This document shows, piece by piece, positions 11,377 through 57,967 of a DNA stretch of 64,000 bases. The DNA is from a virus (taxonomy: Duplodnaviria > Caudoviricetes): positions 31,390 to 95,389 of IMG/VR virus record IMGVR_UViG_2930248008_000005; one strand, written 5' to 3'. Position 1 is the first letter of the stretch. Every line of letters begins with the position of its first letter. The position numbers were made by a program, and so were the translations under genes. The notes below the pieces were generated by a model. The model did not search any database and had not been told where the DNA came from. It worked only from the letters and a program-made list of their open reading frames with translations.

Positions 11377-11754
11377 ATGCGCGCTGACATCCTCAAGCCG
11401 GGCCTGGTAATCGACGGCGTCCGGATTCGGTCCCGGGTTCCGTTCGTGCAGAACCGGGCCAAGATGATCCGCGTGGTCATGGAAGACAGGACCACGCGCA
11501 CCTTTCTGGCCTCCGCCGAAGTGACGGTCGGTGGGCCGCGTCAGGAGTGGTTCCCGGCCGGTCCGGTCCGGGAGAAGGATCACCGCAGCCCGCAGCCGAA
11601 CCGGAAGCCTCGCGCGTCCGACGGCCGGTGGGAGGGCGAGTCGGGCGGGTTCCACGTGACCATGGTCAGCCGGATCTCCGCGTACGACCTGACCGGGCGG
11701 CAGCTTGCCCGGTCCGCGCAGGGTCCGTCCGGTCGCCGCTACAGCAGGCGCTGA
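11377..11754 (+). CDS. Hypothetical protein, first gene of the array
   Basis: AAGGGG RBS; stop is part of a type A repeat. Confidence 0.7.
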   Translation: MRADILKPGLVIDGVRIRSRVPFVQNRAKMIRVVMEDRTTRTFLASAEVTVGGPRQEWFPAGPVREKDHRSPQPNRKPRASDGRWEGESGGFHVTMVSRISAYDLTGRQLARSAQGPSGRRYSRR

Positions 11755-11841
11755 CCCTCCGTGCACCCCTGATGGTGTGCCGGCCCGCTCGCGGTCCGGT
11801 CGCCGTCACCTGCTGCACGGCAGGAGAATCGAGGGATCATC

Positions 11842-12234
11842 ATGCGCGGAATCGGTCAGCACATGCTTCCGGCGGCGACTCAGCCGGAGCCGGCCGACAA
11901 CACGAGCATGTACGTCTACGCCCAGGTGGAGGAGTGGCAGCGGAGCTGCCTGCCCGTACACCCGGAGATCGCCCGCGAGATCGCGGCGTGGTGGCACGCC
12001 CCCGCGCCGCACTACGCCGGCCTGACGGCGTTCGCCAGCACCGGGACCCTACTCCAGCGCGAGTGGGAGCCGGAGGACGAGCCGACCCGGGTCGAGCGCG
12101 AGCGGCCCGTGATCCTGGACGAGATCGACCGGGAGATCGGGACGGAGGACATGTACCGGCCGGAGATCACGCCGCTGTGGGCGCTGCGCCACTACGTGCA
12201 GAACGCCTGCCGCGCCGCCGGGTGGGCGTACTGA
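11842..12234 (+). CDS. Hypothetical cassette protein
   Basis: Bounded by type A repeats. Confidence 0.75.
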   Translation: MRGIGQHMLPAATQPEPADNTSMYVYAQVEEWQRSCLPVHPEIAREIAAWWHAPAPHYAGLTAFASTGTLLQREWEPEDEPTRVERERPVILDEIDREIGTEDMYRPEITPLWALRHYVQNACRAAGWAY

Positions 12235-12341
12235 CCGTGTGCTGACGGTGGGGCACCGTGCCCCGGTCGCGAACGATGCGGCCGGCCGGACCGGTGCCAC
12301 CGCCACCTGCCGCACGGGCAGGAGACTGGCGAGGTGAAAAC

Positions 12342-12710
12342 ATGGGCGCTCGGACCATCACCGAGGAGACCATCGGCGGCCTGTTCAACGAGGGCAAGCT
12401 GACCCCCCTGGAGTTCGGCCTGCGGTGGGTGGAGGTGCGCCAGTACGGCGACTGCCACCCGTCGGAACTGACCCCCTGCAAGCACGACGACGAGACCAAC
12501 ACGGTCACCGTGTCGGTCTACCACGTCTACGGGGAGCAGCGGCTCGGCCAGCCCTGGTCGGAGTACACCTGCCCGAACGTCTGGGCTACGGGTGGCGACG
12601 TCGAGGGCATCGGCGGCGAGTACGTGAACGGTGGCACGTTCAGCTACCTGGGCGACGACCGGGAGCTGTGCGACCGGATCTACCGGCGGGCGGCCGAGGT
12701 CGCGGACTGA
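12342..12710 (+). CDS. Hypothetical cassette protein
   Basis: Bounded by type A repeats; GAGGTG RBS. Confidence 0.75.
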   Translation: MGARTITEETIGGLFNEGKLTPLEFGLRWVEVRQYGDCHPSELTPCKHDDETNTVTVSVYHVYGEQRLGQPWSEYTCPNVWATGGDVEGIGGEYVNGGTFSYLGDDRELCDRIYRRAAEVAD

Positions 12711-12789
12711 CCGTGCGAGTGATGGTGGGAGCCGGGCGCGCCCCGGCTCTCCGCCACCGTCGCATGGCGGAGAAAGCGAGGGACGAGTC

Positions 12790-13158
12790 ATGTCCGTCAC
12801 GATCAACCTGTCCGACATCCTCTGCGTCACCTGCGGGCAGTCGCCAGAGGAGGGCGCGCCGCGCAAGATTGGCGAGTGGGACGATGCCGGGCACACCGAC
12901 AGCGCCCACCACCCGGCCTGGTCCCAGCGGTCGTTCCCGGGCAGCATCTGGGCCGCGCACCCGCAGCAGGCGCTGTGGTACGGGGAGGTCGTCGTGGCCA
13001 AGCCGGGCGAGGACACCGACTACTTCTACGGCTACGCGGACTGCGAGTACGAGCCGTCCGTGGACGAGCTGGTGCCAGCCGGGTGGGAGGTCCTGGAGTC
13101 CAAGGTCAAGCCCACCCCGAATAACCCGGCCTGGGAGCCGGAGCCGGAGCAGGACTGA
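12790..13158 (+). CDS. Hypothetical cassette protein
   Basis: Bounded by type A repeats. Confidence 0.75.
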   Translation: MSVTINLSDILCVTCGQSPEEGAPRKIGEWDDAGHTDSAHHPAWSQRSFPGSIWAAHPQQALWYGEVVVAKPGEDTDYFYGYADCEYEPSVDELVPAGWEVLESKVKPTPNNPAWEPEPEQD

Positions 13159-13237
13159 CCGTGCATCGATGGTGGGGCACCGACTGCGCGTCGGTGCCGC
13201 CGCCACCCGTGCATGGCGGGAGGAAGTGAGGGCAATC

Positions 13238-13420
13238 ATGCCCGACGGCAACCTGTACGACGCGCTGAAGGCCATCGAGCGGTGCGACCCGGACGGCGGG
13301 GAGCGTCAGCCCACCGAGGCGGACTATGTCGCACACGAGCGGTGGGCCGTCCAGACGTTCGGGCAGAGCGTCTGGGACACGTACCGGCGGGGCGGCTGGG
13401 GCGAACCCAGCTACGCCTGA
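13238..13420 (+). CDS. Small hypothetical cassette protein
   Basis: Bounded by type A repeats. Confidence 0.7.
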   Translation: MPDGNLYDALKAIERCDPDGGERQPTEADYVAHERWAVQTFGQSVWDTYRRGGWGEPSYA

Positions 13421-13498
13421 CCGTGCGGGTGATGGTGCGGCATCGGGTGTGCCCGGTGCCGTGCCACCGTCGCATGGCGGAGAGACGAGGTGGAGACC

Positions 13499-14068
13499 AT
13501 GGGTGGCAAGCTGCACGAGAACCCGCACGTCGAGCGGGTGCTGGTCGCGCTGGACACGGCGCGCCGGGAGGCGAACCTGGCGGGTCATCCGTACGACATC
13601 GGGTTCACTGGTGTGGACGAGCCGTACGGGATGATCGAGCGGGCGCTGAAGCGCACGCTGACCCACGCCTTCCCGGACGTGGACGCGGACGCGGTCTACC
13701 ACGCGCTGATCGACTCCGGCGAGGACATCGGGTACTGCGTGGACGCGCTGCGCCGGGAGAAGGCGGACCGGGCCAAGCTGCTCGACCCCTACCGGGAGTA
13801 CGAGCGGCCGGCGGAGTCCGGGCGCTACGGCGCGCGGATGTGGGAGCTGCCGAACGGGTGGGGCGTGTCCCTGGTGCCGTACGCCCGTCACGACGAGGAA
13901 GCGGAGCGGCACGCCATCGCGCGGGAGGACTTCGGGATGGCGATCGGGGCGTTCGTAGGCGGCGGGTTCGTGATCGACAACGAGCGGTCGGCGACCATCG
14001 CGCGGGTGGGCGGCCTGGACTTCGTCGAGACCATCCTGTCCGACACGATGGAGCTGCCGCCGCGCTGA
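13499..14068 (+). CDS. Hypothetical cassette protein
   Basis: Bounded by type A repeats. Confidence 0.75.
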   Translation: MGGKLHENPHVERVLVALDTARREANLAGHPYDIGFTGVDEPYGMIERALKRTLTHAFPDVDADAVYHALIDSGEDIGYCVDALRREKADRAKLLDPYREYERPAESGRYGARMWELPNGWGVSLVPYARHDEEAERHAIAREDFGMAIGAFVGGGFVIDNERSATIARVGGLDFVETILSDTMELPPR

Positions 14069-14147
14069 CCGCGTGTGGATGGTGCTGGCCGGGCGAGAGT
14101 CCGGCCGGTGCCACCTGCCGCGCGGGCAGGAGATTGGCGAGGTTGAC

Positions 14148-14573
14148 ATGACCACGACGACGGCCGTCAGGCACTGGCACGTGGCAACGGGCCTGGTGGG
14201 CTACGGCCCGGACGGGGCGGACGGGTACGGCACGGCGATCGAGCTGACCGACGTGGCGGACCTGATCCGCGACGAGCTGCGGCAGGCTGCCGACTCCGAG
14301 GACGAGGGGTCCCGGAGCGAGGCCGAAGCCGCGGACTTCTCGGAGGCGTGGAAGCTCAAGACGCGCGCCGAGCACCTGTCGATCCTGGCGGAGACGTTCA
14401 GCAACGACCGGGCCAACGCGCCGCTGTACGCCGGAAAGCCGGAGATGTGGGCGGACACGATCGAGACACTGATCCGGCAGCACTTCCCGCTGGACATCAG
14501 CGACCGCTCCCGGTTGTACGTGTGGCCGTGTGCGGAGCCGGGCTGCGAGCACCTGGCCGACCTGGAGCGGTGA
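14148..14573 (+). CDS. Hypothetical cassette protein
   Basis: Bounded by type A repeats. Confidence 0.75.
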   Translation: MTTTTAVRHWHVATGLVGYGPDGADGYGTAIELTDVADLIRDELRQAADSEDEGSRSEAEAADFSEAWKLKTRAEHLSILAETFSNDRANAPLYAGKPEMWADTIETLIRQHFPLDISDRSRLYVWPCAEPGCEHLADLER

Positions 14574-14663
14574 CCTTCGGCGTGCGCTGACGGTGCCGGC
14601 CGGACCGACGCGGTCCGGCCGGTCGCCGCCCGCTACACGGCGGGAGATTGACGAGGTCACCCG

Positions 14664-15044
14664 GTGAACATCGCCGAGACGAGGGAAGAGATCCGCGCGC
14701 AGGTCGCGGAGCACCTGACCATGTGGGCGGGCAAGTGCATGTCGATCGAGGTCGGGGGGCTGTCCCTCGAACTCGCGCCGAGGGTTGGCGGACACATCGA
14801 GATCAGCCGCTTCGTGGTGCCGCGCGCCATGCGCGGCGAGGGGGTCGGCACGGCCGTCATGTGGTCCGTGGCGGCCTGGGCGGACCGGATGGGGTACACC
14901 CTGACCCTGACGCCGTCGAAGGGCTTCGGCGCGACCTCCGTGGCGCGCCTGGAGAAGTTCTACGGGCGGCACGGGTTCATCAGGAACCGGGGCCGGTACG
15001 CGGATCTCACGATCAGTGAGGCCATGCGCCGCGTGCCGCGCTGA
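14664..15044 (+). CDS. GNAT-family acetyltransferase
   Basis: VVPRAMRGEGVGT acetyl-CoA motif and LEKFYGRHGF. Confidence 0.85.
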   Translation: MNIAETREEIRAQVAEHLTMWAGKCMSIEVGGLSLELAPRVGGHIEISRFVVPRAMRGEGVGTAVMWSVAAWADRMGYTLTLTPSKGFGATSVARLEKFYGRHGFIRNRGRYADLTISEAMRRVPR

Positions 15045-15123
15045 CCGTGCGCACCTGGTGCGGGCCGGGCGGAAGTCCGGCCCGTGCCACCTGCCGCGCG
15101 GCAGGAGATTGGCGAAGATCATC

Positions 15124-15489
15124 ATGTGTGAGCAGGACATCGTCGACGCCTTCAACAAGGTCGCGGACAATTACCCAGGCGGGGAGCTGTACCGGCGGCT
15201 GACCGAGGCGTCGCGCAGGGCCGTGCTGGAGGGCATGGCCACCGGCTTGACGCTGGACGACTACCGGAAGGCGAAGGAGGGGCGCGGCGACCTCCGGGAG
15301 TACGCCGACGTGGTTGGCATCTACGTCCGGGACGAGCTGCGCGAGTACATCGACGAGGTGCTGCCAGCCAACGCGCTGCGGGACATCCTGTTGAAGCTGC
15401 TCGACCTGGATGACCGGAGCGTGTCGCTGGCGCTCGGGCAGCACTACCTGCCGGACCCCGACGACATCGACGCCGGGGCGCTGGTCTGA
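15124..15489 (+). CDS. Hypothetical cassette protein
   Basis: Bounded by type A repeats. Confidence 0.7.
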   Translation: MCEQDIVDAFNKVADNYPGGELYRRLTEASRRAVLEGMATGLTLDDYRKAKEGRGDLREYADVVGIYVRDELREYIDEVLPANALRDILLKLLDLDDRSVSLALGQHYLPDPDDIDAGALV

Positions 15490-15570
15490 CCGTGCGCACC
15501 TGGCGCGGGCCGGGCTATCGTCCGGCCCGTCGCCACCTGCCGCGCGGGCAGGGATTGACGAGGGAGGGCC

Positions 15571-15702
15571 ATGTTTCCAGGAGCGTATGCCTCGGTGGAA
15601 CGCAACGAGGCTGGGGAGCCGATCGGGTGGGACTACCCGTCCTACGACGAGCCATACGACCCGGACGACTACCTACCGCAGGACGACGAGGACGAGGACT
15701 GA
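15571..15702 (+). CDS. 43-aa acidic microprotein
   Basis: MFPGAYASVERNEAGEPIGWDYPSYDEPYDPDDYLPQDDEDED; exactly fills the gap between two repeats; GGAGG RBS. Confidence 0.7.
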   Translation: MFPGAYASVERNEAGEPIGWDYPSYDEPYDPDDYLPQDDEDED

Positions 15703-15779
15703 CCGTGCGCCGATGATCCTGGCCGGGCTGCTGTCCGGCCGGGGTCACCGCTGCATGGCGGAGAGAGTGAGGAACGGAC

Positions 15780-16346
15780 ATGCACATCACGTCGCGTGAC
15801 TTGACGAACCTGATCGAGGACGTGAGCCGTGGGAAGCTGACGCCGGCCGAGGGGCATCGGGGGTCGAGCTGGGCGTACCGCGAGGTGATCGACCTGGCGA
15901 ACTCGGTCCTGACGGGCGCGCCGATCGGTGCGGTCGTCATCGACTACGAGCGACGGCACCTGATCGACGGGCGCGAGCGACTGATGACGCTCGCCGCCAT
16001 GTTCCTGCCGGCCGACGAGCGCCCGGCAATGCCCGTGGACGGCAGCGCGCCGCACCTGGTGGTGCGCGGGCTCGCCGAGGGTGACGGGTTCGAGGTGCTC
16101 ATGGTGCGGGAGGAAGACCGGGAGCCGGCCGACCTGCCGCTATCCTGCCTGCTGCGCACGAGGCGGTTCCTCGCGTGGGAGCGGGCCGTAGACGGCGCGC
16201 ACCCCGAGCAGGCGACAGGCATCAAGCGGCGCGGCGGGCGGCTCGCGCAGCGCCTGCACACGGCCAAGGTGGCCGTGATCGAGCTGGACGCCGAGGTGAG
16301 CCCGGACCGGGTCGCGCGGTTGGTGAACCGGCACCGGATCGGCTGA
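15780..16346 (+). CDS. DUF262 (GmrS/ParB-like) domain protein, divergent
   Basis: HR..SW...IDLANSVLTGAPIG...LIDGRERLMTL resembles the DUF262 QR..W / PIG / DGQQRL motifs. Confidence 0.65.
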   Translation: MHITSRDLTNLIEDVSRGKLTPAEGHRGSSWAYREVIDLANSVLTGAPIGAVVIDYERRHLIDGRERLMTLAAMFLPADERPAMPVDGSAPHLVVRGLAEGDGFEVLMVREEDREPADLPLSCLLRTRRFLAWERAVDGAHPEQATGIKRRGGRLAQRLHTAKVAVIELDAEVSPDRVARLVNRHRIG

Positions 16347-16423
16347 CCGTGCGCTGATGGTGCTCGCCCGGCTTCGGCCGGGCGGGTGCCACCGCCGCAC
16401 GGCGGAGGAAGTGAGGCGCTGAG

Positions 16424-16780
16424 ATGGCGCGGATTACCGACGAGATGGTCAGCGAGATGAACGACCGGATCGCGCAGGCCCCGACGACCGCGCAGGCGTT
16501 CCGGCTTGCGATGGGCGTCAGCGACAGGATGCTGTGGCTGCTGCTCGACCTGAACCACATCAACCAGGACGAGGTCGGGTTGGGCAGGGGTGGGCGCGAG
16601 GCACTCGCGGTGGAGGCGCACGGCTGGCACCTGTACTACCGGGACGACGACACGCCGGCTGACGGGTACGGTCCGTGCGAGCTGGGCGGGTTCGAGGCGC
16701 ACAGCCTGCGGCCGTGGGAGTGCCGGGGATGCAAGCGGCGCCCCATTGACCACCGGCGGGTGCCGGTGGCCGTGCGCTGA
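16424..16780 (+). CDS. Hypothetical cassette protein
   Basis: Bounded by repeats; stops at the internal TGA of the repeat. Confidence 0.7.
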   Translation: MARITDEMVSEMNDRIAQAPTTAQAFRLAMGVSDRMLWLLLDLNHINQDEVGLGRGGREALAVEAHGWHLYYRDDDTPADGYGPCELGGFEAHSLRPWECRGCKRRPIDHRRVPVAVR

Positions 16781-16846
16781 TGATCCTGGCCGGGCGCGAG
16801 TCCGGCCGGGGTCACCGCTGCATGGCGGAGGAAGTGAGGGCTGACC

Positions 16847-17137
16847 ATGCGGTACGTGATGGTGACCGCCACCGCTCTGGCAGCGATGCTGCCGGAGCAA
16901 TACGAGCAGTGCAAGAACGACGATCGGTGGACCCTGGTCACCTCGACCGAGGAGACGTGCGCCACGGTCGGGCGCCGCGAGAAGGTGACGCACGTGGTCA
17001 CCTGGGGTCCGCCGGACGGCAGGACCAGAGAGGGGTGCTGCGACGAGTGCGCCGGGTCCTACTCCCGACGGCCAGCGCTGGCCGCGCAGGTGCTCTGCAT
17101 CTGGGCGGGCTGGGGCTGCACGCACGCGCAGCTCTAA
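16847..17137 (+). CDS. Cys-rich hypothetical cassette protein
   Basis: Bounded by repeats. Confidence 0.7.
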   Translation: MRYVMVTATALAAMLPEQYEQCKNDDRWTLVTSTEETCATVGRREKVTHVVTWGPPDGRTREGCCDECAGSYSRRPALAAQVLCIWAGWGCTHAQL

Positions 17138-17216
17138 CCGTGTGCTGATAGTGGCGGCCGGGCCGAGGGTCCGGCCGCTGCCACCACCGCACGGGTGGAG
17201 AGAGGCAGGGCGGATC

Positions 17217-17813
17217 ATGCCGCGCACCATCACGACCACGCGCACCGTGTTCAAGTTCGAGGAGTTGAGCGAGGACGCGCAGCAGCGGGCGGTTGAGCGG
17301 ATCGCCGAGAAGATGGCGACGACCTGGTGGGACCAGCACGACAACGACGACATCGGCGCGACCATCGTCTACAAGATGGCCGAGAAGCTGCGCACGCGGG
17401 GCTGGGACACCTTCGGGGAGGGAGACTTCCCCGGAATCCCCGGGGTCGAGCTGGTCGAGTGGGACCTGGGGCGCGGGCAGGCGGTCAGCTTCAAGGGAGC
17501 GCTGGACCGTGAGAACGCCCCCGCGCTGCCCTGGGCCGATGGAGTCGAGGCCGTAACCCTCGGCGGCATCCCGGGCTACGGCATCGGCCAGTCCGTCTAC
17601 GTCGAGACAGACGGCGAGGCCGAGACCGACGAGGAGGTGGCGCGGGTCGGCGCGGCGGCGGAGGCGATGAAGAGCGCCGTCGAGGATGCCATCCACGCCG
17701 CCTGGCAGGCAGGCAAGGAGCAGGAGGAGTGGAAGGGCGGCGAGGAGCGCGCCCGCGACTGGATCGAGGCGAACGAGCCCGAGTTCGACGAGTCAGGCAA
17801 CCTCGACCACTGA
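17217..17813 (+). CDS. Conserved phage hypothetical protein
   Basis: TVFKFEELSEDAQQRA ... IEANEPEFDESG, a common phage early-protein pattern. Confidence 0.75.
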   Translation: MPRTITTTRTVFKFEELSEDAQQRAVERIAEKMATTWWDQHDNDDIGATIVYKMAEKLRTRGWDTFGEGDFPGIPGVELVEWDLGRGQAVSFKGALDRENAPALPWADGVEAVTLGGIPGYGIGQSVYVETDGEAETDEEVARVGAAAEAMKSAVEDAIHAAWQAGKEQEEWKGGEERARDWIEANEPEFDESGNLDH

Positions 17814-17893
17814 CCGTGCGCTGACGGTGGCCGCCGGGCCGATGGTCCGGCGGCTGCCACCTCCGCACGGGAGGGGAAAGCAGGGGTAGGCAC

Positions 17894-18223
17894 ATGATCA
17901 TCAACCTGGAGTCGCCGCAACGGCAGGCGTCGACCTACACGCCGGGCACCGTTCAGGACGCGGCAGAGCGCGAGCTGCGCATCATGCTGGAGGAGTTGCG
18001 CGACGAGGGCAAGGTCGAGCAGTACGGCCGGGAGCTGCGCCGGGCGGTGGTCTTCACGAGGGCCGGCAATGGTCCGACCTGCCTGGTGGTGTTCCTCATG
18101 GACTCCGACGGCGACCCGATGTCGGCGTTCGTGGACTACAGCGAGCGGCACGACGCCGCCATGCCGGTCCCGGAGCCGTACGTCCAGGAGCTGTACGACG
18201 CACTGCGCGCCTACGGGCGCTGA
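17894..18223 (+). CDS. Hypothetical cassette protein
   Basis: Bounded by repeats. Confidence 0.7.
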   Translation: MIINLESPQRQASTYTPGTVQDAAERELRIMLEELRDEGKVEQYGRELRRAVVFTRAGNGPTCLVVFLMDSDGDPMSAFVDYSERHDAAMPVPEPYVQELYDALRAYGR

Positions 18224-49228: not shown

Positions 49229-49233
49229 CCGAG

Positions 49234-50389: not shown

Positions 50390-52642
50390 ATGGCATCCAC
50401 CAGCACCCGCGCCCGCCGGCAGCCCGGCGAGGCCGCCGACAAGCGCGAGGCGCCGGCCGACCGGAAGCCGGACTCCGAGGAGGAGGCGACGCCCACCGCC
50501 CCGCTGCTGCCGTACGCCGAGATGGGCCAGCGCCTTCGCGGCGGGGTCGAGGTCCTGTCCGCCGCCGCGGTGACCGCCGCGGCCGGCCAGGTCGTCTACC
50601 AGAACCACGCCGCGATGTACGCGGCGATGGCCGTGCCGGTGTTCGGCGTGGCCGCGTGGAAGCTGTCGCCGAAGCTGATCGACAAGACCCTGGCCCGAGT
50701 GGAGGGGAAGCAGACCGCCGAGGCGATCGAGGCCGGCGAGCCGGAGGCCCTCACCCGCCGGGAGCGCATCCGCCGCGCGGTCGCTGCGGCCACCGCAGCG
50801 GCGACCGGCTGGGTGGCTGCCGCCGGCACGGTGGGACTTGAGCCCCATACCCTCGGCGGCAAGGTCACCATCACCGCCGGTGCGCTGCTGACGATGCTGG
50901 CCGGGGTGCCATACCTGCGTTTCCACCGCTTCGAGGCGATCCCGCCAGCGAAGCCGAAGCCCGACCCCCGGCCTGAGCCCGAGCCCGAACCGGAGCCCGA
51001 ACCGGAGCCCGAGCCGGCCCCGTTCGGCTGGGCCGTCGAGGTCGCGAAGAAGGTCGCCATCTGGACCACCGCGGTCGCGCTGACCGCTGGCGCGCTACCT
51101 GGCACCCACCTGGTCGAGCACACCGTCGAGGAGATCAAGGGCGGCTGGCGCGCCACGATCGCCTCCGACCTGCCGGGCACGGTCAAGCCGAGCAAGTTCG
51201 TGCAGGCCGCTGAGCAGGTCGCTGGCGCCTACGAGGTCGACATCCCCGACGTGTCGATCGAGCTGATGCCTGGCAACGCCAGCCAGGCGATCCTGACCGT
51301 ACAGAAGGAGAACCCGCTCGCGGCGATCCAGCACTGGCAGGGACCGGAGGCCACTTTCGACGTCGAGACTGGCGTGGCCCACATCGGCCTGCACGCCGAC
51401 GGGGAGCTGGTGCGCTACCGCTTCTGGTCCACTGGCGGCGCCTGGCACGACCTGATCTCCGGAGCGACGGGCTCTGGCAAGTCGGAGCTGGTCAACCTCC
51501 TGCTGGCCCTGGAGCGCCACGCCACGGTGCTGGTGCCCGAGGAAGTCGACGGCGAGACGAAGATGGTCAAGAAGGGCCTGATCGTCTCCCGGGTCATCGA
51601 CCCGCAGTTCGGCCAGAGCTTTGGCGACTGGCAGGACTACGTCGACTGGTTCGCCCACCACCTCGACGAGGCGCGGATCCTGCTGCAGAAGACCGAGCGG
51701 GAGATGTTCGCCCGCAACCGGGCCTTCGGCCGGCAGAAGTGGTACGACGAGGAGCGCAAGGTCTGGCGGCGGGGCCAGAAGAACTGGAAGCCCACGCCCG
51801 AGCTGCCGATGATCGTGATCACGATCGACGAGGCGCACATGATCCTCAAGGATCCTGAGTGCAAGCGGATCGTGGCAATGCTCGGCAAAATGGGCCGCAA
51901 GGTCGGCATCAAGCTGCGCCTGATCACGCAGGTTCCGCTGCTGACCGAGCTGGGCGGCGACATGGCCATCCGCGACGCGGTCGCCGGCGGCAACGTGATC
52001 GTCTTCCGCACCGCCAACGCCCTGTCCGGCCAGGTGGCGTTCAACGGCACCCTGCCGGCCGCCCCGCACCAGCTGCCGCGCGAGTGGCCGAAGGGCAAGT
52101 GCCGGCCGGGCGAGGAGACCACCGCAGGCATCGGCTACGTGCTGGGCGCGGCGTCCCGGTCGTCGATCATGCGCGCGTTCTACCCGGGCGAGGCGATCGA
52201 CTGGATCTACCGCGACGGCAAGCTCTACGGCACGCCGGGCGTGCTCGACGCGCTGACCCGCCGCTCCGGCACCGGCTACGAGGACCGCCTGGAGCGACTG
52301 GAGGCCATGGACAACGGCGACCTCGACAGCATCCCGCTGCCGCAAATGGGCGAGCAGGACGGCCGGCCGTGCCGCCTGATCGTGCTGGAGCGCCTCCTGG
52401 AGGCCGATAACCACACCCTGCCCCGGCAGAAGCTGCTGGACCTGGTGAAGAGCCACAGCAGCCGCATGGTCGGCAAGGTCCTCACCGACCTACGGAGGGC
52501 CAAGTGGACCGAGCCCGGCGAGGAGTCTGGCTCCCACAAGCTCACCGAGGCGGGCATCGCGGGCGCCATGGATGAGCTGGCCCAGGCCGCCGAGCAGGAG
52601 GCGGCGGCACAGGCCGAGACCGAGGAGCTTGTCGACGCGTAG
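50390..52642 (+). CDS. traB: FtsK/SpoIIIE-family conjugative DNA translocase (TraB-like)
   Basis: N-terminal TMs, GATGSGKS Walker A, ITIDEAH Walker B, GRKVGI, C-terminal wHTH. Confidence 0.85.
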   Translation: MASTSTRARRQPGEAADKREAPADRKPDSEEEATPTAPLLPYAEMGQRLRGGVEVLSAAAVTAAAGQVVYQNHAAMYAAMAVPVFGVAAWKLSPKLIDKTLARVEGKQTAEAIEAGEPEALTRRERIRRAVAAATAAATGWVAAAGTVGLEPHTLGGKVTITAGALLTMLAGVPYLRFHRFEAIPPAKPKPDPRPEPEPEPEPEPEPEPAPFGWAVEVAKKVAIWTTAVALTAGALPGTHLVEHTVEEIKGGWRATIASDLPGTVKPSKFVQAAEQVAGAYEVDIPDVSIELMPGNASQAILTVQKENPLAAIQHWQGPEATFDVETGVAHIGLHADGELVRYRFWSTGGAWHDLISGATGSGKSELVNLLLALERHATVLVPEEVDGETKMVKKGLIVSRVIDPQFGQSFGDWQDYVDWFAHHLDEARILLQKTEREMFARNRAFGRQKWYDEERKVWRRGQKNWKPTPELPMIVITIDEAHMILKDPECKRIVAMLGKMGRKVGIKLRLITQVPLLTELGGDMAIRDAVAGGNVIVFRTANALSGQVAFNGTLPAAPHQLPREWPKGKCRPGEETTAGIGYVLGAASRSSIMRAFYPGEAIDWIYRDGKLYGTPGVLDALTRRSGTGYEDRLERLEAMDNGDLDSIPLPQMGEQDGRPCRLIVLERLLEADNHTLPRQKLLDLVKSHSSRMVGKVLTDLRRAKWTEPGEESGSHKLTEAGIAGAMDELAQAAEQEAAAQAETEELVDA

Positions 52643-53312: not shown

Positions 53313-53639
53313 GTGGGACAGGAGAAGGGCGAAACAACCTACGTCATGCTTGCAGGCGACTGCGGGCCAATGACTCGCACGAGCTACATCCCGACGGAGG
53401 ATGAGCGGAACGACTTCCAGGCGTGCGCCTGGCGCTACCGGATTCACTATCGGTACCGCACGACGACCAGCAAGGCTGACGGCTGGAGCGAAATGGGGTA
53501 CCCCACCCAGATGAAGGACGAGTACCTGGCGAGCTTCGTCGAGATTCACGAGCAGTGGCTGTCGGAGACGCCTTCGGCCGGCGGGGAGCGGCTGATTGCG
53601 GGTTCGGTGGAGGTCGTGAGGTACGAAGCCATCGCCTGA
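53313..53639 (+). CDS. Hypothetical cassette protein
   Basis: Bounded by type B repeats. Confidence 0.6.
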   Translation: MGQEKGETTYVMLAGDCGPMTRTSYIPTEDERNDFQACAWRYRIHYRYRTTTSKADGWSEMGYPTQMKDEYLASFVEIHEQWLSETPSAGGERLIAGSVEVVRYEAIA

Positions 53640-53740
53640 CCGCTTCTGCGGCCGTCCGGGCGACCGGGCGGACCGTGGTGGCCACAACAAATCGGGCCCG
53701 GATCCACGGTGGATCCGGGCCCGCTTGGCCGACGGCGCAG

Positions 53741-54001
53741 CTATGCCATCGACGGTTCTCGGCGCTTGCGCGGCTGCTTCGGGCGCCACTCGAAGCCGGA
53801 CTTGCGCCGCAGCTCTCCGAGGGCGTTGGCCCAGCCTCGCCAGTCGGAGCCGTTGGTGTCGCCCGGCAGGTTGCACAGCACTTCGTCTCCGCGCAGTACC
53901 TGCAGATGGTTGCCCCGGCTCCGCCGGAGTCTCAGACCGTAGTCCTTCATCGCGTCGAACAGCCGACTCTTCTCGCTGGGCCCCATGTTCACGTTGCTCA
54001 T
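53741..54001 (-). CDS. HicA-like protein
   Basis: GLRLRRSRGNHLQV...T.GSDWR...N....LRRKSG; GGGGAG RBS. Confidence 0.55.
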   Translation of the reverse strand: MSNVNMGPSEKSRLFDAMKDYGLRLRRSRGNHLQVLRGDEVLCNLPGDTNGSDWRGWANALGELRRKSGFEWRPKQPRKRREPSMA

Positions 54002-55941: not shown

Positions 55942-55942
55942 G

Positions 55943-56179
55943 ATGGGCTCGTACTGCAGGTTCTGCGATCGGCGGTGCTTCGTCCTGCGCGTCCTCCGCG
56001 ACGGCCGGTCGATGGCGCTCGCCACCTGCGCGCGAGGAATGGCGCACGACCGCCAGAAGTGCGGGCAGGACCACACCACAGCGCTCAATCCGGCCACCGA
56101 CCAGGCCGCAATCCAGCGGCTCCTCGCGGAGATCGCCGAGCTGAAGGAACTCGCCCGCTCGGCAACCAACCCCACCTGA
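55943..56179 (+). CDS. Small Cys-containing hypothetical protein
   Basis: MGSYCRFCDRRCFV.R...ATC..G..HD. Confidence 0.7.
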   Translation: MGSYCRFCDRRCFVLRVLRDGRSMALATCARGMAHDRQKCGQDHTTALNPATDQAAIQRLLAEIAELKELARSATNPT

Positions 56180-56287
56180 CCGCCGCGCTTCCGGCCGGCC
56201 CGTCTCGCACGGGCCGGCACGGTGGCCGCCCGGCCAGCCCGGACCACCGCCGGGGCAACAGCCCGCCAGACACCGGAGGCACCACGC

Positions 56288-56545
56288 ATGTACGGCACCG
56301 CCACGACGACCCGCGTTCCTGACGGGGAGATGGACTACCTCGCGAAGGCCGGCGAGCAGCTCGACAAGGCCGCGCAGGCGATCGACAGCCGCGCCACCGA
56401 CAGGTACGTAACCAAGGAGGAGATCAGCACCGCCCGGCAGGCGATCGCAAACGGGTACGCGCTGCTTGGCGCGATCCAGCGCGGACAGCTCCCGGCCGCG
56501 CTCGCCCGGGACCTGCTCGACCGGCTCGCCACCGACAACCGCTGA
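56288..56545 (+). CDS. Hypothetical cassette protein
   Basis: Flanked by near-identical type B repeats. Confidence 0.7.
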   Translation: MYGTATTTRVPDGEMDYLAKAGEQLDKAAQAIDSRATDRYVTKEEISTARQAIANGYALLGAIQRGQLPAALARDLLDRLATDNR

Positions 56546-56628
56546 CCGCCGACGCTTCCGGCCGGCCCGTCTCGCACGGGCCGGCACGGTGGCCGACCGG
56601 CCAGCCCCCACAAAGACCAAGGAGAGTT

Positions 56629-57372
56629 ATGACCAGCCGCACCATCGAGGCCCGACAGGCGGGACCGGTCGTCGCCGACCTGAGCCTGCAGTACGGGCGC
56701 ATCGAGGTGATCGTCGAGCGCCGCGACCGCGCCGAGGTCACCCTGACCACCCCCGCCAGCCGCGGCCCCGCCGTCGACGCCGTCAAGGGCTTCGCGCTGC
56801 GCGACACCCGCGACGGCTTCCGCGCCCACCTGGAGATCCCCCCGACCGTGGTCTCCGGGGGCGGCACCACGGTCATCCAGGGCGGCGGCAGCGTCGTCGT
56901 CCTCGGCGACAACATGCACCAGGTCAACCACTTCTCTGGTAGCGGCTCGGTGGTCCAGATCGGCGGCAGCCACGGCAGCGTGGTGGTTGGCGGCGGGAAC
57001 GTCTCCATCGGCGGCGGGAGCACCGTTGAGATGCAGGTTCGCCTGCCCGAGCGGTCCGCGATCGTCGTCGACGCCGCCCACTGCCCGGTTCTCACCCAGG
57101 GCCGCCTGGGCGCCGCCTCGATCAATTTTCGGCACGGCAACGTCCAGATCGACGAGGTTGGCGCCCTGAACGTCCAAGGCGCGCACGGCAGCGTCACCGT
57201 CAATGCCCTCGACGGTGACGCGAACCTCCACGTCACCCACGGCAACATCGACATCCACGCGCTGCGCCCCTGCCGGGTGCGGGCGCGCACCCGACACGGC
57301 AACATCACCGTGAGCGGCGCCCGCGTCGACCTGGACGCCTCCGCTCAGCACGGCTCGGTGCGCAACCGGTGA
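56629..57372 (+). CDS. DUF4097/adhesin-like beta-repeat protein
   Basis: Repeated ..HG(N/S)(V/I) beta units. Confidence 0.7.
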   Translation: MTSRTIEARQAGPVVADLSLQYGRIEVIVERRDRAEVTLTTPASRGPAVDAVKGFALRDTRDGFRAHLEIPPTVVSGGGTTVIQGGGSVVVLGDNMHQVNHFSGSGSVVQIGGSHGSVVVGGGNVSIGGGSTVEMQVRLPERSAIVVDAAHCPVLTQGRLGAASINFRHGNVQIDEVGALNVQGAHGSVTVNALDGDANLHVTHGNIDIHALRPCRVRARTRHGNITVSGARVDLDASAQHGSVRNR

Positions 57373-57545
57373 GGGAGTTCTGGGCGAAGATCCTCGCCTC
57401 CGCGCTGCTGACCCTGCTCATCAAGGGCGGGGTCGCCCTGGCCGGCCACTGGATCGCCTGGTGGTTCGCCGCCCTCATCTCGCTGGTCGTCGTCTTCGGC
57501 GGCTGGTTCATCATCACCGGCGACTGGGACGAGGTGTTCCGCTGA
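57369..57545 (+). CDS. Small membrane protein
   Basis: GTGA and TGATG overlaps; two TMs. Confidence 0.6.
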   Translation: MREFWAKILASALLTLLIKGGVALAGHWIAWWFAALISLVVVFGGWFIITGDWDEVFR

Positions 57546-57886
57546 TGACCACCACTACGGTCTTTCGCGCCGACCCCGTCCAGTCTCACGATGCGTGCGG
57601 TGGCGGCGACCCGTGCGCGCACTGCAAGGCCGGACGCCCGGGGGTACCACGCTGGATCATGGGGGTGAGTAGCCCTACGCAGTCCGTCTGGGAGCTGGAC
57701 GAGGAGGTGCGCCTGGCCCTGCCGCCGCGCTTCCACGTGCCGCACTACATCGACACCTGCACGCCCGCCGGCTGGTTCTGCGCCAGCTGCTGGGGCGACG
57801 GCTGGATGTCGAGCTGGCCCTGCGACGTCGCCCTGCGGCACCCCAGGCACATCGGCCCGCTCGCACCCACGCGCACCTCGAACTGA
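57545..57886 (+). CDS. Hypothetical Cys-containing protein
   Basis: H.P....W.C..C......WPC motif. Confidence 0.65.
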   Translation: MTTTTVFRADPVQSHDACGGGDPCAHCKAGRPGVPRWIMGVSSPTQSVWELDEEVRLALPPRFHVPHYIDTCTPAGWFCASCWGDGWMSSWPCDVALRHPRHIGPLAPTRTSN

Positions 57887-57967
57887 CCGCTTCCGTCCCG
57901 CCTGGCCAAAAGCCGGGCGGGCGCGGTGGCAGCCAGGCCAAAGCAACCGATCGAGCAAGGAGAGAGC

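What the first reader, a model, noticed from the sequence alone, without database searches (positions are those of the whole stretch)
11751..57945. 46-kb cassette-like gene array punctuated by ~70 conserved structured repeats
Seen: about 70 intergenic elements in two families (manual count ~39 A and ~31 B). Nearly all start at or within a few nt of the upstream gene's stop (CTGACC...), contain a variable GC hairpin flanked by conserved arms, and end in the next gene's RBS. Units are mostly single, unrelated, short ORFs, all co-oriented behind a strong promoter cluster. Known analogues are integron attC cassette arrays, T4-like PeSL shuffling elements and mycobacteriophage SAS/ESAS, but none that I recall has this sequence or architecture. 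Inference: an undescribed system for modular gene acquisition, shuffling and/or per-gene mRNA processing in an actinophage early/host-takeover region. No recombinase is visible in the window.
Basis: partly seen in the sequence, partly recalled or inferred. Interest (0 to 1): 0.95.

Follow-up and report, generated by a model that had tools for sequence, protein, structure and literature searches.

The report
Two-state RNA punctuation repeats between prophage genes
About 70 copies of two families of folded, roughly 80-base repeats fill the gaps between small unrelated genes of an actinobacterial prophage, each running from one gene's stop codon to the next gene's ribosome-binding site; they look like RNA-level gene separators that also serve as swap points for single genes.

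Summary
Covariance models find 39 family-A copies (window 11755-33223) and 29 family-B copies (28730-57960). Two more B-like copies were seen by eye. All lie on the + strand and none elsewhere in the 95-kb provirus. By my gene calls, 69 of 88 gene junctions carry one.

Each copy can fold in two mutually exclusive ways:
- a roughly 25-27-bp irregular hairpin (L), with the upstream stop codon at its 5' base;
- a small hairpin (S) just upstream of the Shine-Dalgarno sequence.

Both folds are supported by compensatory changes. G·U pairs far outnumber A·C, so the sense strand, most likely RNA, is what is selected. Both families recur in prophages of Micromonospora maritima and Plantactinospora alkalitolerans. 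There, gene content differs by single-cassette gains, losses and swaps bounded by repeats.

No integron integrase, σ70-like promoter, U-tract terminator, Rfam family or phage or plasmid database match was found.

Best reading (inferred, about 0.45): these are per-gene mRNA processing, stability and insulation modules, and their DNA incidentally provides homology for cassette shuffling. No RNA data exist, so the mechanism is untested. I class it as a new variant of phage intergenic regulatory repeats.

The parts
11755..11845 (+). family A copy
   Evidence: R1 37.1 bits
12231..12343 (+). family A copy with about 25-nt insertion in the apical hairpin
   Evidence: R1 40.0 bits; fold
12707..12792 (+). 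family A copy
   Evidence: R1 57.9 bits
13155..13241 (+). family A copy
   Evidence: R1 59.6 bits
13417..13502 (+). family A copy (seed)
   Evidence: R1 76.2 bits
14065..14151 (+). family A copy (seed)
   Evidence: R1 78.1 bits
14576..14665 (+). family A copy
   Evidence: R1 45.6 bits
15041..15126 (+). family A copy (missed in my first gene-gap listing)
   Evidence: R1 62.6 bits
15486..15572 (+). family A copy
   Evidence: R1 47.0 bits
15699..15783 (+). family A copy (seed)
   Evidence: R1 90.0 bits
16343..16427 (+). family A copy (seed)
   Evidence: R1 93.5 bits
16766..16850 (+). family A copy; stop codon at second TGA, 5' arm is coding
   Evidence: R1 84.1 bits
17134..17219 (+). family A copy (seed)
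   Evidence: R1 82.6 bits
17810..17895 (+). family A copy (seed)
   Evidence: R1 86.4 bits
18220..18305 (+). family A copy (seed)
   Evidence: R1 82.2 bits
18546..18633 (+). family A copy
   Evidence: R1 65.4 bits
19341..19427 (+). family A copy
   Evidence: R1 68.8 bits
19678..19761 (+). family A copy
   Evidence: R1 45.8 bits
20174..20262 (+). family A copy
   Evidence: R1 55.7 bits
20555..20642 (+). family A copy (seed)
   Evidence: R1 78.0 bits
20829..20913 (+). family A copy
   Evidence: R1 43.4 bits
21385..21469 (+). family A copy
   Evidence: R1 64.3 bits
21935..22023 (+). family A copy
   Evidence: R1 50.5 bits
22303..22386 (+). family A copy; stop at second TGA
   Evidence: R1 75.1 bits
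22906..22992 (+). family A copy
   Evidence: R1 56.1 bits
23386..23472 (+). family A copy, aberrant 3' part (no canonical S hairpin)
   Evidence: R1 32.4 bits
23933..24019 (+). family A copy, mismatched P1 arms (looks chimeric), no canonical S
   Evidence: R1 40.3 bits
24299..24386 (+). family A copy
   Evidence: R1 52.1 bits
25198..25282 (+). family A copy; left boundary of a one-cassette indel against M. maritima
   Evidence: R1 58.6 bits
25598..25681 (+). family A copy; right boundary of that indel
   Evidence: R1 56.3 bits
26109..26193 (+). family A copy
   Evidence: R1 46.0 bits
26600..26688 (+). family A copy; left boundary of second one-cassette indel
   Evidence: R1 51.7 bits
26918..27005 (+). 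family A copy; right boundary of second indel
   Evidence: R1 56.7 bits
27471..27558 (+). family A copy
   Evidence: R1 61.3 bits
27938..28025 (+). family A copy
   Evidence: R1 60.7 bits
28242..28325 (+). family A copy; stop at second TGA
   Evidence: R1 46.0 bits
32020..32107 (+). family A copy (A resumes after a B island)
   Evidence: R1 56.7 bits
32613..32700 (+). family A copy; stop at second TGA
   Evidence: R1 36.5 bits
33138..33223 (+). family A copy (last)
   Evidence: R1 44.7 bits
28730..28808 (+). family B copy (seed)
   Evidence: R2 75.0 bits
29109..29184 (+). family B copy
   Evidence: R2 67.5 bits
29352..29438 (+). family B copy
   Evidence: R2 63.6 bits
29748..29828 (+). family B copy (seed)
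   Evidence: R2 64.4 bits
30578..30655 (+). family B copy (seed)
   Evidence: R2 81.3 bits
31039..31119 (+). family B copy
   Evidence: R2 59.4 bits
34719..34794 (+). family B copy in a leader after a promoter-like 21-mer; no upstream gene end nearby
   Evidence: R2 39.2 bits
36028..36109 (+). family B copy (seed)
   Evidence: R2 80.3 bits
36627..36704 (+). family B copy (seed)
   Evidence: R2 83.8 bits
37031..37112 (+). family B copy (seed)
   Evidence: R2 62.9 bits
37481..37563 (+). family B copy
   Evidence: R2 43.8 bits
37808..37883 (+). family B copy
   Evidence: R2 50.0 bits
38278..38358 (+). family B copy
   Evidence: R2 46.4 bits
38732..38810 (+). family B copy (seed)
   Evidence: R2 77.6 bits
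39664..39742 (+). family B copy (weak)
   Evidence: R2 27.6 bits
40167..40248 (+). family B copy
   Evidence: R2 48.3 bits
40797..40876 (+). family B copy
   Evidence: R2 43.0 bits
41156..41212 (+). family B copy, model positions 1-59 only
   Evidence: R2 54.3 bits
42242..42321 (+). family B copy (seed)
   Evidence: R2 58.9 bits
43375..43450 (+). family B copy, variant arms (TCGG / CCGA)
   Evidence: R2 35.1 bits
44063..44135 (+). family B copy
   Evidence: R2 38.3 bits
44706..44782 (+). family B copy (CCTGGCC arm; stop lies upstream)
   Evidence: R2 58.9 bits
48702..48783 (+). family B copy inside the conjugation-like module
   Evidence: R2 47.6 bits
50300..50378 (+). family B copy before the TraB-like gene
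   Evidence: R2 65.6 bits
52642..52718 (+). family B copy; small hairpin TGACC/GGTCA (compensated)
   Evidence: R2 37.7 bits
53233..53311 (+). family B copy
   Evidence: R2 38.4 bits
53635..53710 (+). family B copy lacking the small hairpin, followed by another perfect hairpin (likely end of a transcription unit)
   Evidence: R2 27.7 bits
55341..55417 (+). family B copy
   Evidence: R2 33.5 bits
56177..56290 (+). B-like copy seen by eye only
   Evidence: not reached by R2 at E <= 0.01
56543..56631 (+). B-like copy seen by eye only
   Evidence: not reached by R2 at E <= 0.01
57882..57960 (+). family B copy (last)
   Evidence: R2 41.0 bits

Best explanation
The repeats are cis-acting elements of the sense transcript that punctuate a long, mostly promoter-less array of small genes.

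Shown:
- Each copy spans stop codon to ribosome-binding site.
- Each copy can adopt two mutually exclusive folds.
- Fold L is a 25-27-bp irregular GC-rich hairpin with conserved mismatches and G·U pairs. Its 5' base holds the upstream stop codon.
- Fold S is a 5-7-bp hairpin about 20 nt upstream of the start codon. Its loop and 5' arm are the 3' strand of L's basal helix.

Inferred:
- L is a processing and stability signal, most likely for a double-strand-specific endonuclease such as host RNase III, as at the T7 early intercistronic sites.
- Cleavage would leave the apical hairpin as a 3' protector of the upstream cistron.
- Cleavage would also free the 3' strand to snap into S. S would then cap the new 5' end and keep the standardised Shine-Dalgarno region unpaired.
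- Every gene would thereby get the same insulated expression context.

At the DNA level, the same 80-bp repeats are portable homology. General recombination between them deletes, inserts or swaps single genes. This gives a cassette-like mosaic without a dedicated recombinase.
For: Structure L, family A (39 copies):
- 95.5% of 926 cells are paired.
- 18 of 24 pairs changed on both sides.
- 0 of 500 shuffles reached the observed values. Slid controls gave 26-43% paired.

Structure L, family B (29 copies):
- 91.9% paired, 14 of 20 pairs changed on both sides, 0 of 500 shuffles.

Strand: G·U 137 against A·C 16 in A, and 67 against 11 in B.

Structure S:
- It forms in 37 of 39 A copies, using at least 8 different complementary stem sequences.
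- Swapping 3' arms between copies raises the mean energy from -9.17 to -6.70 kcal/mol. 0 of 2000 permutations were as low.
- Among the A-family junctions upstream of orthologous genes compared with M. maritima, three show compensated changes. Examples are CCACC/GGTGG vs CCTCC/GGAGG and CCGCC/GGCGG vs CCGTC/GACGG.
- All 9 Plantactinospora B copies in the alignment keep a small hairpin at the same place but with a different pairing solution.

Switch: blocking the first 16 nt changes the predicted fold from L (mean -56.1) to apical hairpin plus S (mean -47.3). Predicted Shine-Dalgarno accessibility stays at 0.52.

Independence from upstream translation: one B copy (34719-34794) sits in a leader with no upstream gene end nearby and still forms L.

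Not promoters or intrinsic terminators: in the scan of 9000-28000, no sigma-70-like promoter was found, and no hairpin-plus-U-tract site lies on the + strand within the array (from about 11.3 kb).

Precedent (passages read in PMC3867540): RNase III single-strand cleavage at loops or mismatches creates stabilising 3' hairpins. T7's ~7000-nt early precursor carries five such signals.

Conservation: both families occur in M. maritima (about 31 A and 29 B) and in P. alkalitolerans (about 17 A and 15 B).

Recombination:
- Single-cassette indels bounded by repeats.
- The 3' arm follows the downstream gene: identity 0.81 against a background of 0.71, n=15.
- The 5' arm follows the upstream gene: 0.78 against 0.72, n=12.
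Against: - No RNA data exist for this phage or its relatives, so no cleavage site, RNA end or expression effect has been seen. The only run found is the source DNA.
- RNase III is inferred from helix length and irregularities only. No nuclease is encoded in the array.
- The alignments used for pair counts were fitted to the model structure, which inflates the paired percentage.
- In family B most double-sided changes lie in the apical hairpin. The basal helix varies little.
- The near-fixed placement of the stop codon at the base of L is not needed by a pure processing model. It fits a ribosome-driven switch at least as well.
- The half-linkage signal is modest, and the 'wrong' arms are also above background: 0.76 against 0.72 and 0.75 against 0.70.
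- Gene boundaries are where viable recombinants would be seen in any case.
Confidence: 0.45

Rival explanations
1. Ribosome-actuated switch for translational coupling. A ribosome reaching the stop codon at the base of L must melt the basal helix, and the released 3' strand folds into S. The apical hairpin keeps stop and next start close in space. The terminating ribosome, or its 30S subunit, is handed across the hairpin to the SD-like GGAG and the true SD. This would be a bacterial analogue of shunting or termination-reinitiation.
For: - The stop codon lies within -4 to +14 nt of the model start in 39 of 39 A copies, and at positions 2-4 in 29.
- Blocking 16 nt from the stop flips the predicted fold to S.
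- The 3' arm of S carries a GGAG-type motif directly opposite the stop codon in L.
- Both folds covary.
Against: - Predicted accessibility of the true SD does not change between states: 0.52 and 0.52.
- S sequesters the GGAG rather than exposing it.
- Three of 29 B copies have no upstream gene end nearby, yet one examined (34719) keeps L.
- Every gene has its own good SD and start.
- No ribosome data exist.
Confidence: 0.2
2. Insulation of a very long transcript. Fully folded spacers leave no free C-rich RNA for Rho loading and slow exonucleases. There would be no specific cleavage, and S would only prevent mispairing of the freed strand.
For: - Almost the whole stop-to-SD spacer is paired in predicted folds.
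- A 91-bp tandem TTGACA repeat and an rrn-leader-like motif head the array. This suggests a processive, termination-resistant transcription complex.
- No internal promoters or terminators were found in the array portion of the 9-28 kb scan.
Against: - It does not explain why spacers exist at all rather than overlapping stop/start, as at 14 junctions.
- It does not explain the conserved mismatches and G·U pairs. One example is U·G in 38 of 39 copies at one position.
- It does not explain the covarying alternative hairpin.
Confidence: 0.12
3. Promoter/terminator cassettes of the PeSL kind. Each repeat would end one transcript at the big hairpin and start the next from a phage-specific promoter in the conserved 3' arm.
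For: - A conserved 22-24-nt 3' arm lies directly upstream of each SD, in two sequence classes.
- There is a hairpin after every gene.
- Repeat-bounded shuffling occurs, as for PeSLs (abstract of PMC2839356).
Against: - No sigma-70-like promoter and no U-tract after the hairpins.
- No phage RNA polymerase or sigma factor among the 89 array proteins.
- The 3' arm covaries with the 5' arm across the hairpin, which a promoter would not require.
- G·U excess.
Confidence: 0.08
4. DNA-level site-specific recombination sites of an integron-like gene-capture system, folded as single-stranded DNA.
For: - Cassette-like layout: one promoter-less ORF plus one imperfect palindrome with conserved ends and a variable centre.
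- Single-cassette differences between relatives.
Against: - The only recombinase in the provirus is a generic Xer-like tyrosine integrase at its end. It scores far below the integron-integrase cut-off (50.6 against 265).
- No recombinase in the array.
- No attC-type R'/R'' motifs in the consensus (the attC motifs themselves are recalled).
- Two unrelated sequence families share one architecture, which suits a structure-reading factor better than a site-specific enzyme.
- The array layout is conserved across genera.
- The sense strand is the selected one.
Confidence: 0.05
5. Selfish miniature palindromic repeats (REP/ERIC/Correia-like) that spread within the phage, without a role of their own.
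For: - They are imperfect palindromes of about 80 nt, in many copies and in intergenic positions.
- Such elements are known to be co-transcribed and cut by RNases (recalled).
Against: - There is one copy per junction, always in the same orientation and in register with stop and start.
- None lies elsewhere in the provirus.
- In the hosts searched, all strong hits lie in the prophage arrays.
- Among 150 other genomes of the same family, only 1 has a hit, and it is a single weak one.
- Orthologous positions are retained across genera, with compensatory changes.
Confidence: 0.05

Closest known systems
RNase III processing signals between cistrons of phage early mRNAs (T7 early region; passages of PMC3867540 read; SP82 of Bacillus recalled)
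   Same: - Irregular hairpins of about two helical turns lie between genes of a long polycistronic phage transcript.
- Internal loops or mismatches could restrict cutting to one strand.
- A 3' hairpin is left as a stabiliser.
   Different: - About 70 sites instead of 5-10.
- Two repeat families.
- The element spans stop codon to SD exactly.
- A covarying alternative small hairpin is built into the 3' strand.
- Cleavage is not shown here.
PeSL cassettes of T4-like phages (abstract of PMC2839356 read; PMC4122927 seen in the search listing only)
   Same: - Short conserved regulatory repeats lie between small non-essential ORFan genes.
- Recombination between copies explains insertions, deletions and replacements between related phages.
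   Different: - PeSLs are sigma-70-like early promoters plus terminator stem-loops.
- Here no promoter or U-tract terminator was found.
- Here the conserved arms pair with each other as RNA.
- Mini-circles were not tested.
SAS/ESAS of Cluster K mycobacteriophages (passages of PMC3203893 read)
   Same: - An actinobacteriophage feature restricted to the non-structural arm.
- One orientation only.
- Sits at the RBS of genes that have large intergenic gaps.
- The inverted repeat has a variable spacer.
- The upstream stop sometimes lies inside the element.
   Different: - SAS is a fixed 13-mer and ESAS a pair of 17-bp inverted repeats, with 11-19 copies per genome.
- The authors state that departures in the ESAS arms do not support RNA pairing, and they favour a DNA-binding protein.
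- Here the sequence is unrelated, copies are 4-6 times more numerous, and pairing is maintained by compensatory change.
Integron attC cassette arrays (features recalled)
   Same: - Co-oriented promoter-less ORFs, each with an imperfect palindrome that has conserved ends and a variable centre.
- Single-cassette differences between relatives.
   Different: - No IntI.
- No attC consensus boxes.
- The sense strand rather than the bottom strand is selected.
- The element also carries the next gene's RBS.
Synthetic insulator parts such as RiboJ (recalled)
   Same: A processing element followed by a small hairpin that standardises the 5' context of an RBS, so that any gene is expressed predictably.
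   Different: - This element is natural and repeated about 70 times.
- No ribozyme was detected (Rfam).
- The analogy concerns how it may work, not ancestry.

Membership tests
Integron (attC array + IntI) | Integron integrase IntI next to the array | tested here: not met
   The only recombinase is at genome 845-1777. It hits Pfam Phage_integrase. Against NCBIfam TIGR02249 integrase_gron it scores 50.6 bits against a cut-off of 265, matching the C-terminal stretch only. The best hits are Xer-type and also below their cut-offs. None of the 89 array proteins is a recombinase.
Integron (attC array + IntI) | attC boxes (R''/L''...L'/R' with GTTRRRY-type core; recalled definition), folding of the bottom strand | tested here: not met
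   The consensus of A is CTGACCGTGCGCTGATGGTG...GCCACC..GCACGG. The consensus of B is CCTGACCGCTTCCGT...GGTGGCCGCCAGGGCCA. Neither has such cores. The G·U excess shows that the + strand is the folded one.
Integron (attC array + IntI) | Excision and insertion of single cassettes as circles | not testable with these tools
   Only contigs of the source DNA run were available. Their 'joints' have 21-37-nt sides at repeats and are graph artefacts.
PeSL (T4-like phages) | Strong sigma-70-like early promoter in each unit | tested here: not met
   0 promoter-like sites in 9000-28000, against 0.9 expected in shuffles. Caveat: this is a simple consensus scan, and actinobacterial or phage-specific promoters are not covered.
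PeSL (T4-like phages) | Stem-loop acting as transcription terminator | tested here: inconclusive
   Strong hairpins are present, but none on the + strand within the array (scan 9000-28000) is followed by a U tract. Function was not tested.
PeSL (T4-like phages) | Recombination between units shuffles genes between related phages | tested here: met
   Against M. maritima there are many single-cassette indels and replacements and two local order swaps. Two clean one-cassette indels have a hybrid or matching repeat at the junction. Repeat arms are linked to their flanking genes.
SAS/ESAS (Cluster K mycobacteriophages) | 13-bp SAS GGGATAGGAGCCC 3-7 bp before the start codon | tested here: not met
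   The region before the start codons is purine-rich (GGAGGAAGTGAGG in A, AAGACGGAGGAG in B) and contains no such 13-mer. The definition comes from PMC3203893.
SAS/ESAS (Cluster K mycobacteriophages) | 17-bp imperfect inverted repeats whose departures do not support RNA pairing | tested here: not met
   Here departures are compensated: 18 of 24 pairs in A and 14 of 20 in B changed on both sides.
RNase III intercistronic processing sites | Roughly 20-bp or longer irregular helix between cistrons of a polycistronic RNA | tested here: met
   L has 24 modelled pairs, plus up to 3 more at the base in single-sequence folds. It has a conserved bulge and mismatches, and it covaries.
RNase III intercistronic processing sites | Cleavage by RNase III in vivo or in vitro | not testable with these tools
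   No RNA holder was listed for this sequence.
Rfam families (any described structured RNA) | Match at the gathering score | tested here: not met
   0 matches over the whole window. In E-value mode there were only sub-threshold miRNA-precursor-like and SECIS-like hits of 21-34 bits, against cut-offs of 70-79.
REP/ERIC/Correia-like dispersed palindromes | Copies dispersed over the host chromosome, often in both orientations | tested here: not met
   All copies are on one strand and confined to the array. In G002 and G003 the hits lie in the prophage arrays. Among 150 other genomes of that family, 1 has a single weak hit. Caveat: only 29-150 candidates per genome were scored.

The most novel reading that the evidence does not exclude
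Each repeat is a ribosome-actuated RNA switch. Termination at the stop codon embedded in the base of the long hairpin flips the element into its second fold. The hairpin bridges the 80-nt gap, so the terminating ribosome is passed to the next gene's start. This would be a bacterial counterpart of ribosome shunting or termination-reinitiation.

Packaged as a portable module, the element would also let phages swap single genes by homologous recombination. Any newly acquired ORF would then be expressed at once.
Probability: 0.15. Interest if true: 0.9.

Novelty: new variant of a known kind. Interest (0 to 1): 0.72.

Why it matters
Phage 'dark matter' genes sit in hyperplastic arrays, and how such arrays are expressed and reshuffled is poorly understood outside T4-like and a few mycobacterial phages.

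This case offers a sequence-defined, covariation-supported RNA module with four notable properties:
- It is repeated about 70 times.
- It occurs in two unrelated sequence families that share one architecture.
- It has been conserved across at least two actinobacterial genera.
- Its copies coincide with the boundaries of single-gene gain, loss and swap.

If the module directs per-gene processing or coupling, it would be a natural 'plug-and-play' expression insulator. It would also be a ready-made part for synthetic operons in high-GC actinomycetes.

If it is a ribosome-driven switch, it would be a new mode of translational coupling.

M. maritima JCM 17013 is named in the record title of locus L021. 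If that strain can be obtained and grown, the question becomes directly testable.

Tried and rejected
DNA similarity searches:
- Megablast and blastn of array segments against INPHARED phages gave no match.
- Against PLSDB plasmids there was only a 74-nt coding match in three Streptomyces plasmids.

pZL12/pSLE1 phage-plasmids were considered as relatives. The portal protein has no close match in PLSDB, so this idea was dropped.

Pattern scans:
- IMG/VR exact-pattern scans with A and B cores gave only single hits per contig, taken as chance.
- The portal protein search in IMG/VR found no relative.
R1 confirmed 0 of the 80 listed loci. The pattern was too loose, so this says nothing about environmental distribution.

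RNA data: no RNA holder was listed for the stretch.

Read laying on the one DNA run, which is probably the source: unitigs break at repeats, and the seven 'joints' have sides of only 21-37 nt. I read these as assembly-graph artefacts, not rearrangements.

G001, the closest portal relative at 83%:
- Its contig ends about 6 kb beyond the portal.
- The TraB-like protein and the 301-aa array protein were not found with these queries.
- It was not used further.

More distant portal relatives (Actinoplanes, a Mycobacterium MAG and a Micromonosporaceae MAG) show no interspersed repeats in the 3.5-6 kb upstream of the portal. These flanks are too short to exclude arrays.

RNAalifold on the raw MAFFT alignment gave only 9 pairs because the variable hairpin was misaligned. 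I replaced it with model-guided alignments.

Ideas considered and set aside:
- Stop-codon read-through into the next ORF, because spacer lengths fall in all three phases.
- Hairpin promoters for a phage RNA polymerase, because no polymerase was found.
- TraB recognition repeats, because the palindromic stems lack polarity and are variable.

The rrn-leader check is unresolved. The host loci carrying TCTTTGAGAACTCAA contain no rRNA within the fetched 1.6 kb.

Supplementary files of papers were not requested. The figures and supplements of PMC3203893 and PMC2839356 could refine the comparison.

Full report
**What the sequence is.** The window is the right-hand 64 kb of a 95,389-bp single-contig record that IMG/VR classes as a provirus, with CheckV completeness 93%. 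GC content is about 70%. Window 1-9000 carries minus-strand head genes: terminase 5239-6921, portal 3153-4751 and protease 1844-3151. The rest of the structural arm, with a 1933-aa ORF that I take to be the tape-measure gene, lies left of the window. A generic tyrosine integrase sits at the far left end, genome 845-1777. From about 11.3 kb to the window's end, nearly all genes are on the + strand. Portal homologues of 83-59% identity are annotated in Micromonospora species and Plantactinospora. The host is therefore very probably a member of the Micromonosporaceae.

**Checking the observation.** Listing the gaps between my GC3-based gene calls shows both repeat families at once.
- I built a covariance model for family A from ten copies whose MAFFT alignment was structurally consistent.
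- It finds 39 + strand copies between 11755 and 33223, at 32-93 bits.
- The best minus-strand score, 31.5 bits, is the mirror of one of the same palindromes.
- A model for family B finds 29 + strand copies between 28730 and 57960.
- Two further B-like copies (56177-56290 and 56543-56631) are visible by eye but were not reached by the model.
- Neither model hits anything in the first 43 kb of the provirus.

By my gene calls there are 88 junctions between consecutive + strand genes. Of these, 39 carry an A copy, 29 carry one B copy and 1 carries two. Fourteen are overlaps or gaps under 30 nt, and 5 are longer gaps without a repeat.

The genes are small, with a median of 122 aa. They are unrelated: 12 Pfam families are hit among 89 proteins, each by a single member, and there is one weak paralogue pair.

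**Anatomy.** Family A reads C-TGA-CCGTGCG-CTGA-TGGTG-[variable GC hairpin]-GCCACC-NNNNN-GCAC(G)-N'N'N'N'N'(GGAG)-purine-rich SD-start. Single-sequence folds give one long irregular hairpin, L. It consists of:
- a basal helix in which the 7 nt right after the stop codon pair with the GCACGG region;
- a conserved mismatch region;
- a helix TGGT/GCCA;
- the variable apical stem.

On the model-guided alignment of all 39 copies, 95.5% of 926 cells are paired and 18 of 24 pairs show changes on both sides. None of 500 column shuffles reaches the observed values. Sliding the partner by 1-3 columns drops pairing to 26-43%. The caveat is that the alignment was fitted to this structure.

A second structure is equally clear. 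The 5 or 6 nt before GCAC(G) and the 5 or 6 nt after it are complementary in 37 of 39 copies. They use at least eight different stem sequences, among them CCGCC/GGCGG, CCTGCC/GGCAGG, CCACC/GGTGG, CCTCC/GGAGG and CCCGTC/GACGGG. Exchanging 3' arms between copies weakens the hairpin from -9.17 to -6.70 kcal/mol on average, and 0 of 2000 permutations were as low. This small hairpin, S, uses as its loop and inner stem the very bases that form the 3' strand of L's basal helix. The two folds therefore exclude each other.

Family B has a different sequence but the same logic.
- In L, CCTGaCcGCT pairs with GGCcGcCAGG around a variable hairpin.
- S is TGGCC-GCCAG-GGCCA, built from L's 3' strand.
- L in B is 91.9% paired, with 14 of 20 pairs changed on both sides and 0 of 500 shuffles reaching the observed values. 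Most of the variation is in the apical stem.

**Which strand and which molecule.** G·U pairs outnumber A·C mismatches, 137 to 16 in A and 67 to 11 in B. One U·G pair is kept in 38 of 39 A copies. On the complementary strand these would be A·C mismatches. Selection therefore acts on the + strand, which is the sense strand of all flanking genes. A structure in the mRNA is the simplest reading. A folded + strand of DNA cannot be excluded formally.

**What the elements are not.**
- Rfam has no match at gathering scores. In E-value mode there are only sub-threshold matches to generic long hairpins.
- There are no tRNAs.
- The simple scans of 9000-28000 find no sigma-70-like promoter, and no hairpin followed by a U tract on the + strand within the array.
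- No recombinase, nuclease, RNA polymerase or sigma factor is recognisable among the 89 array proteins.
- The provirus integrase scores 50.6 bits against the integron-integrase model, whose cut-off is 265.

**Relatives.** A scan of species-representative genomes with a portal alignment gave 37 loci.
- R1 and R2 find arrays next to the portal in M. maritima (portal 80%). There are about 31 A copies and about 29 B copies, on the same strand relative to the portal.
- They also find arrays in Plantactinospora alkalitolerans (portal 60%), with about 17 A and about 15 B.
- The order of A block, short B island, A again, then long B block is the same in the window and in M. maritima.
- In a sample of 150 other genomes of the same family, one has a single weak hit. 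Only 29 candidates per genome were scored, but the control genome gave 23 hits under the same conditions.
- All nine Plantactinospora B copies in the alignment keep a small 3' hairpin at the same place. They use a different pairing, of the type GCyGyCA-GGG-TGrCrGC, and the stems again covary.
- Between the window and M. maritima, three of the A-family junctions upstream of orthologous genes that I compared show compensated changes in S.

Both folds have therefore been maintained independently in diverged lineages.

**Gene turnover.** Array proteins of the window and M. maritima are mostly collinear at 33-86% identity. Many genes lack a counterpart, however, and two neighbouring pairs are in swapped order. 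Two cases are clean. Window genes 25278-25601 and 26685-26921, each with one repeat, are absent from M. maritima, where the flanking orthologues are separated by a single repeat. In the second case that repeat resembles the left window repeat at its first ~10 nt and the right one for the rest.

I also took junctions where only one neighbour is orthologous.
- The 3' arm is more alike when the downstream gene is shared: 0.81 against a background of 0.71 ± 0.07, n=15.
- The 5' arm is more alike when the upstream gene is shared: 0.78 against 0.72 ± 0.08, n=12.
- The opposite arms are also somewhat above background, at 0.76 and 0.75.

This fits crossovers inside the repeats, but the evidence is modest. 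Selection for intact genes would place visible breakpoints at gene boundaries in any case.

**How it most likely works.** The shown facts are these:
- a two-state sense-strand structure;
- fixed register with stop and start;
- no promoter or terminator signature;
- conservation across genera;
- repeat-bounded cassette differences.

The rest is inferred. L is about two and a half helical turns long, with conserved irregularities. This is the kind of substrate that RNase III cuts on one strand. Such a cut leaves a stabilising 3' hairpin, as at the five signals of the T7 early precursor (passages of PMC3867540).

If the 5' strand of L is removed or occupied, the predicted fold switches to the apical hairpin plus S. 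The mean energy goes from -56.1 to -47.3 kcal/mol, while the SD window stays equally open at 0.52. S would then sit at the new 5' end of the downstream cistron, where a stem-loop protects against 5'-end-dependent decay (general knowledge of RNase E/J biology, recalled).

This sequence of events explains why both folds are selected. It also explains why two unrelated sequence families can serve, since a structure-reading enzyme would not need a conserved sequence.

The main rival is that the ribosome itself is the actuator. The stop codon lies at the base of L in all A copies, so every termination must open L. I give the processing/insulation model 0.45 and the ribosome-switch model 0.20. The remainder goes to Rho/decay insulation, PeSL-like promoter-terminator units, integron-like recombination and selfish repeats.

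The DNA-level role as homology for shuffling is compatible with all RNA models. I regard it as a by-product.

**Comparison with known systems.**
- The elements work most like RNase III intercistronic signals. They evolve most like PeSLs (abstract of PMC2839356).
- They sit where SAS/ESAS sit in Cluster K mycobacteriophages. For ESAS, however, the authors report that arm departures do not support RNA pairing (PMC3203893), whereas here they do.
- They are not integron attC sites.

I found no description in four full-text searches. These cover only open-access papers and preprints.

I class the finding as a new variant of a known kind, namely phage intergenic regulatory repeat cassettes. Its extent is unusual, and its bistable RNA design is, as far as I could search, undescribed.

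**Limits.**
- Gene calls are my own heuristic.
- E-values of the models are rough.
- The pair counts lean towards the fitted structure.
- Only two related arrays could be read.
- There are no RNA data.

Noticed in passing
window 10079-10367 and about 10410-10440: A 91-bp tandem repeat (3.2 copies, 97% matches), each unit with TTGACA, heads the array. It is followed by GTTGTTTGTTGAGAACTCAAGAGC. The 12-mer TTGAGAACTCAA within it also occurs as TCTTTGAGAACTCAA four times in each of the two host genomes searched. Six of those eight lie within about 115 nt of a contig end, as expected beside collapsed rRNA operons. No rRNA lay in the fetched flanks, so the rrn-leader (boxA-like) reading is unconfirmed.
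   Followed up: partly
window 45116-52642: A conjugation-like module lies inside the provirus and inside the B block: a divergent GntR/UTRA regulator (45116-45826, minus strand), a DUF2637 protein (46141-47739) and a TraB-like FtsK/SpoIIIE protein (50390-52642). The TraB-like protein is 34-37% identical to plasmid proteins of Kitasatospora and Streptomyces. The module is conserved in M. maritima.
   Followed up: partly
window 34681-34701 and 42340-42360 (a looser copy near 58690): An AT-rich 21-mer, CTACCTTGGATGTATTAAATA, occurs twice with at most 1 mismatch, against 0 expected. Each copy follows a hairpin and precedes a B copy or a long gap. These probably mark internal promoters or operators that split the array into several transcription units.
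   Followed up: partly
window 53635-53760: This B copy lacks the small hairpin. Instead it is followed by a perfect 13-bp hairpin (GGGCCCGGATCCA...TGGATCCGGGCCC), then a 480-nt gap. It looks like the end of a transcription unit.
   Followed up: no
window 12231-12343: One A copy carries an extra ~25 nt inside the apical hairpin, giving a longer branched stem.
   Followed up: no
window 23386-24019: Two adjacent A copies lack the canonical small hairpin. One has 5' and 3' basal arms of different sub-types (CCGTACG with CGAGCGG), as expected for a recombinant between sub-types.
   Followed up: partly
window 16766, 22303, 28242, 32613: In four A copies the upstream ORF reads through the first arm and stops at the second TGA (CTGATGG). 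The repeat's 5' arm therefore encodes the last four codons. The arm carries TGA in two of the three frames.
   Followed up: partly
window 34809-36026, 41320-42246, 58806-59573: Recognisable genes in or just after the array: a DUF932/TIGR03299 'phage/plasmid-like protein', a phrog_6247 protein annotated as DNA topoisomerase, and ThyX.
   Followed up: no
genome G000 845-1777 (outside the window): A Xer-like tyrosine integrase sits at the left end of the provirus.
   Followed up: yes
L020 (Micromonospora sp. NPDC049366, contig of 94,092 bp): In the closest portal relative (83%), the contig ends about 6 kb beyond the portal. This is roughly where the tandem promoter repeat would lie. Two array proteins were not found elsewhere in that assembly.
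   Followed up: partly
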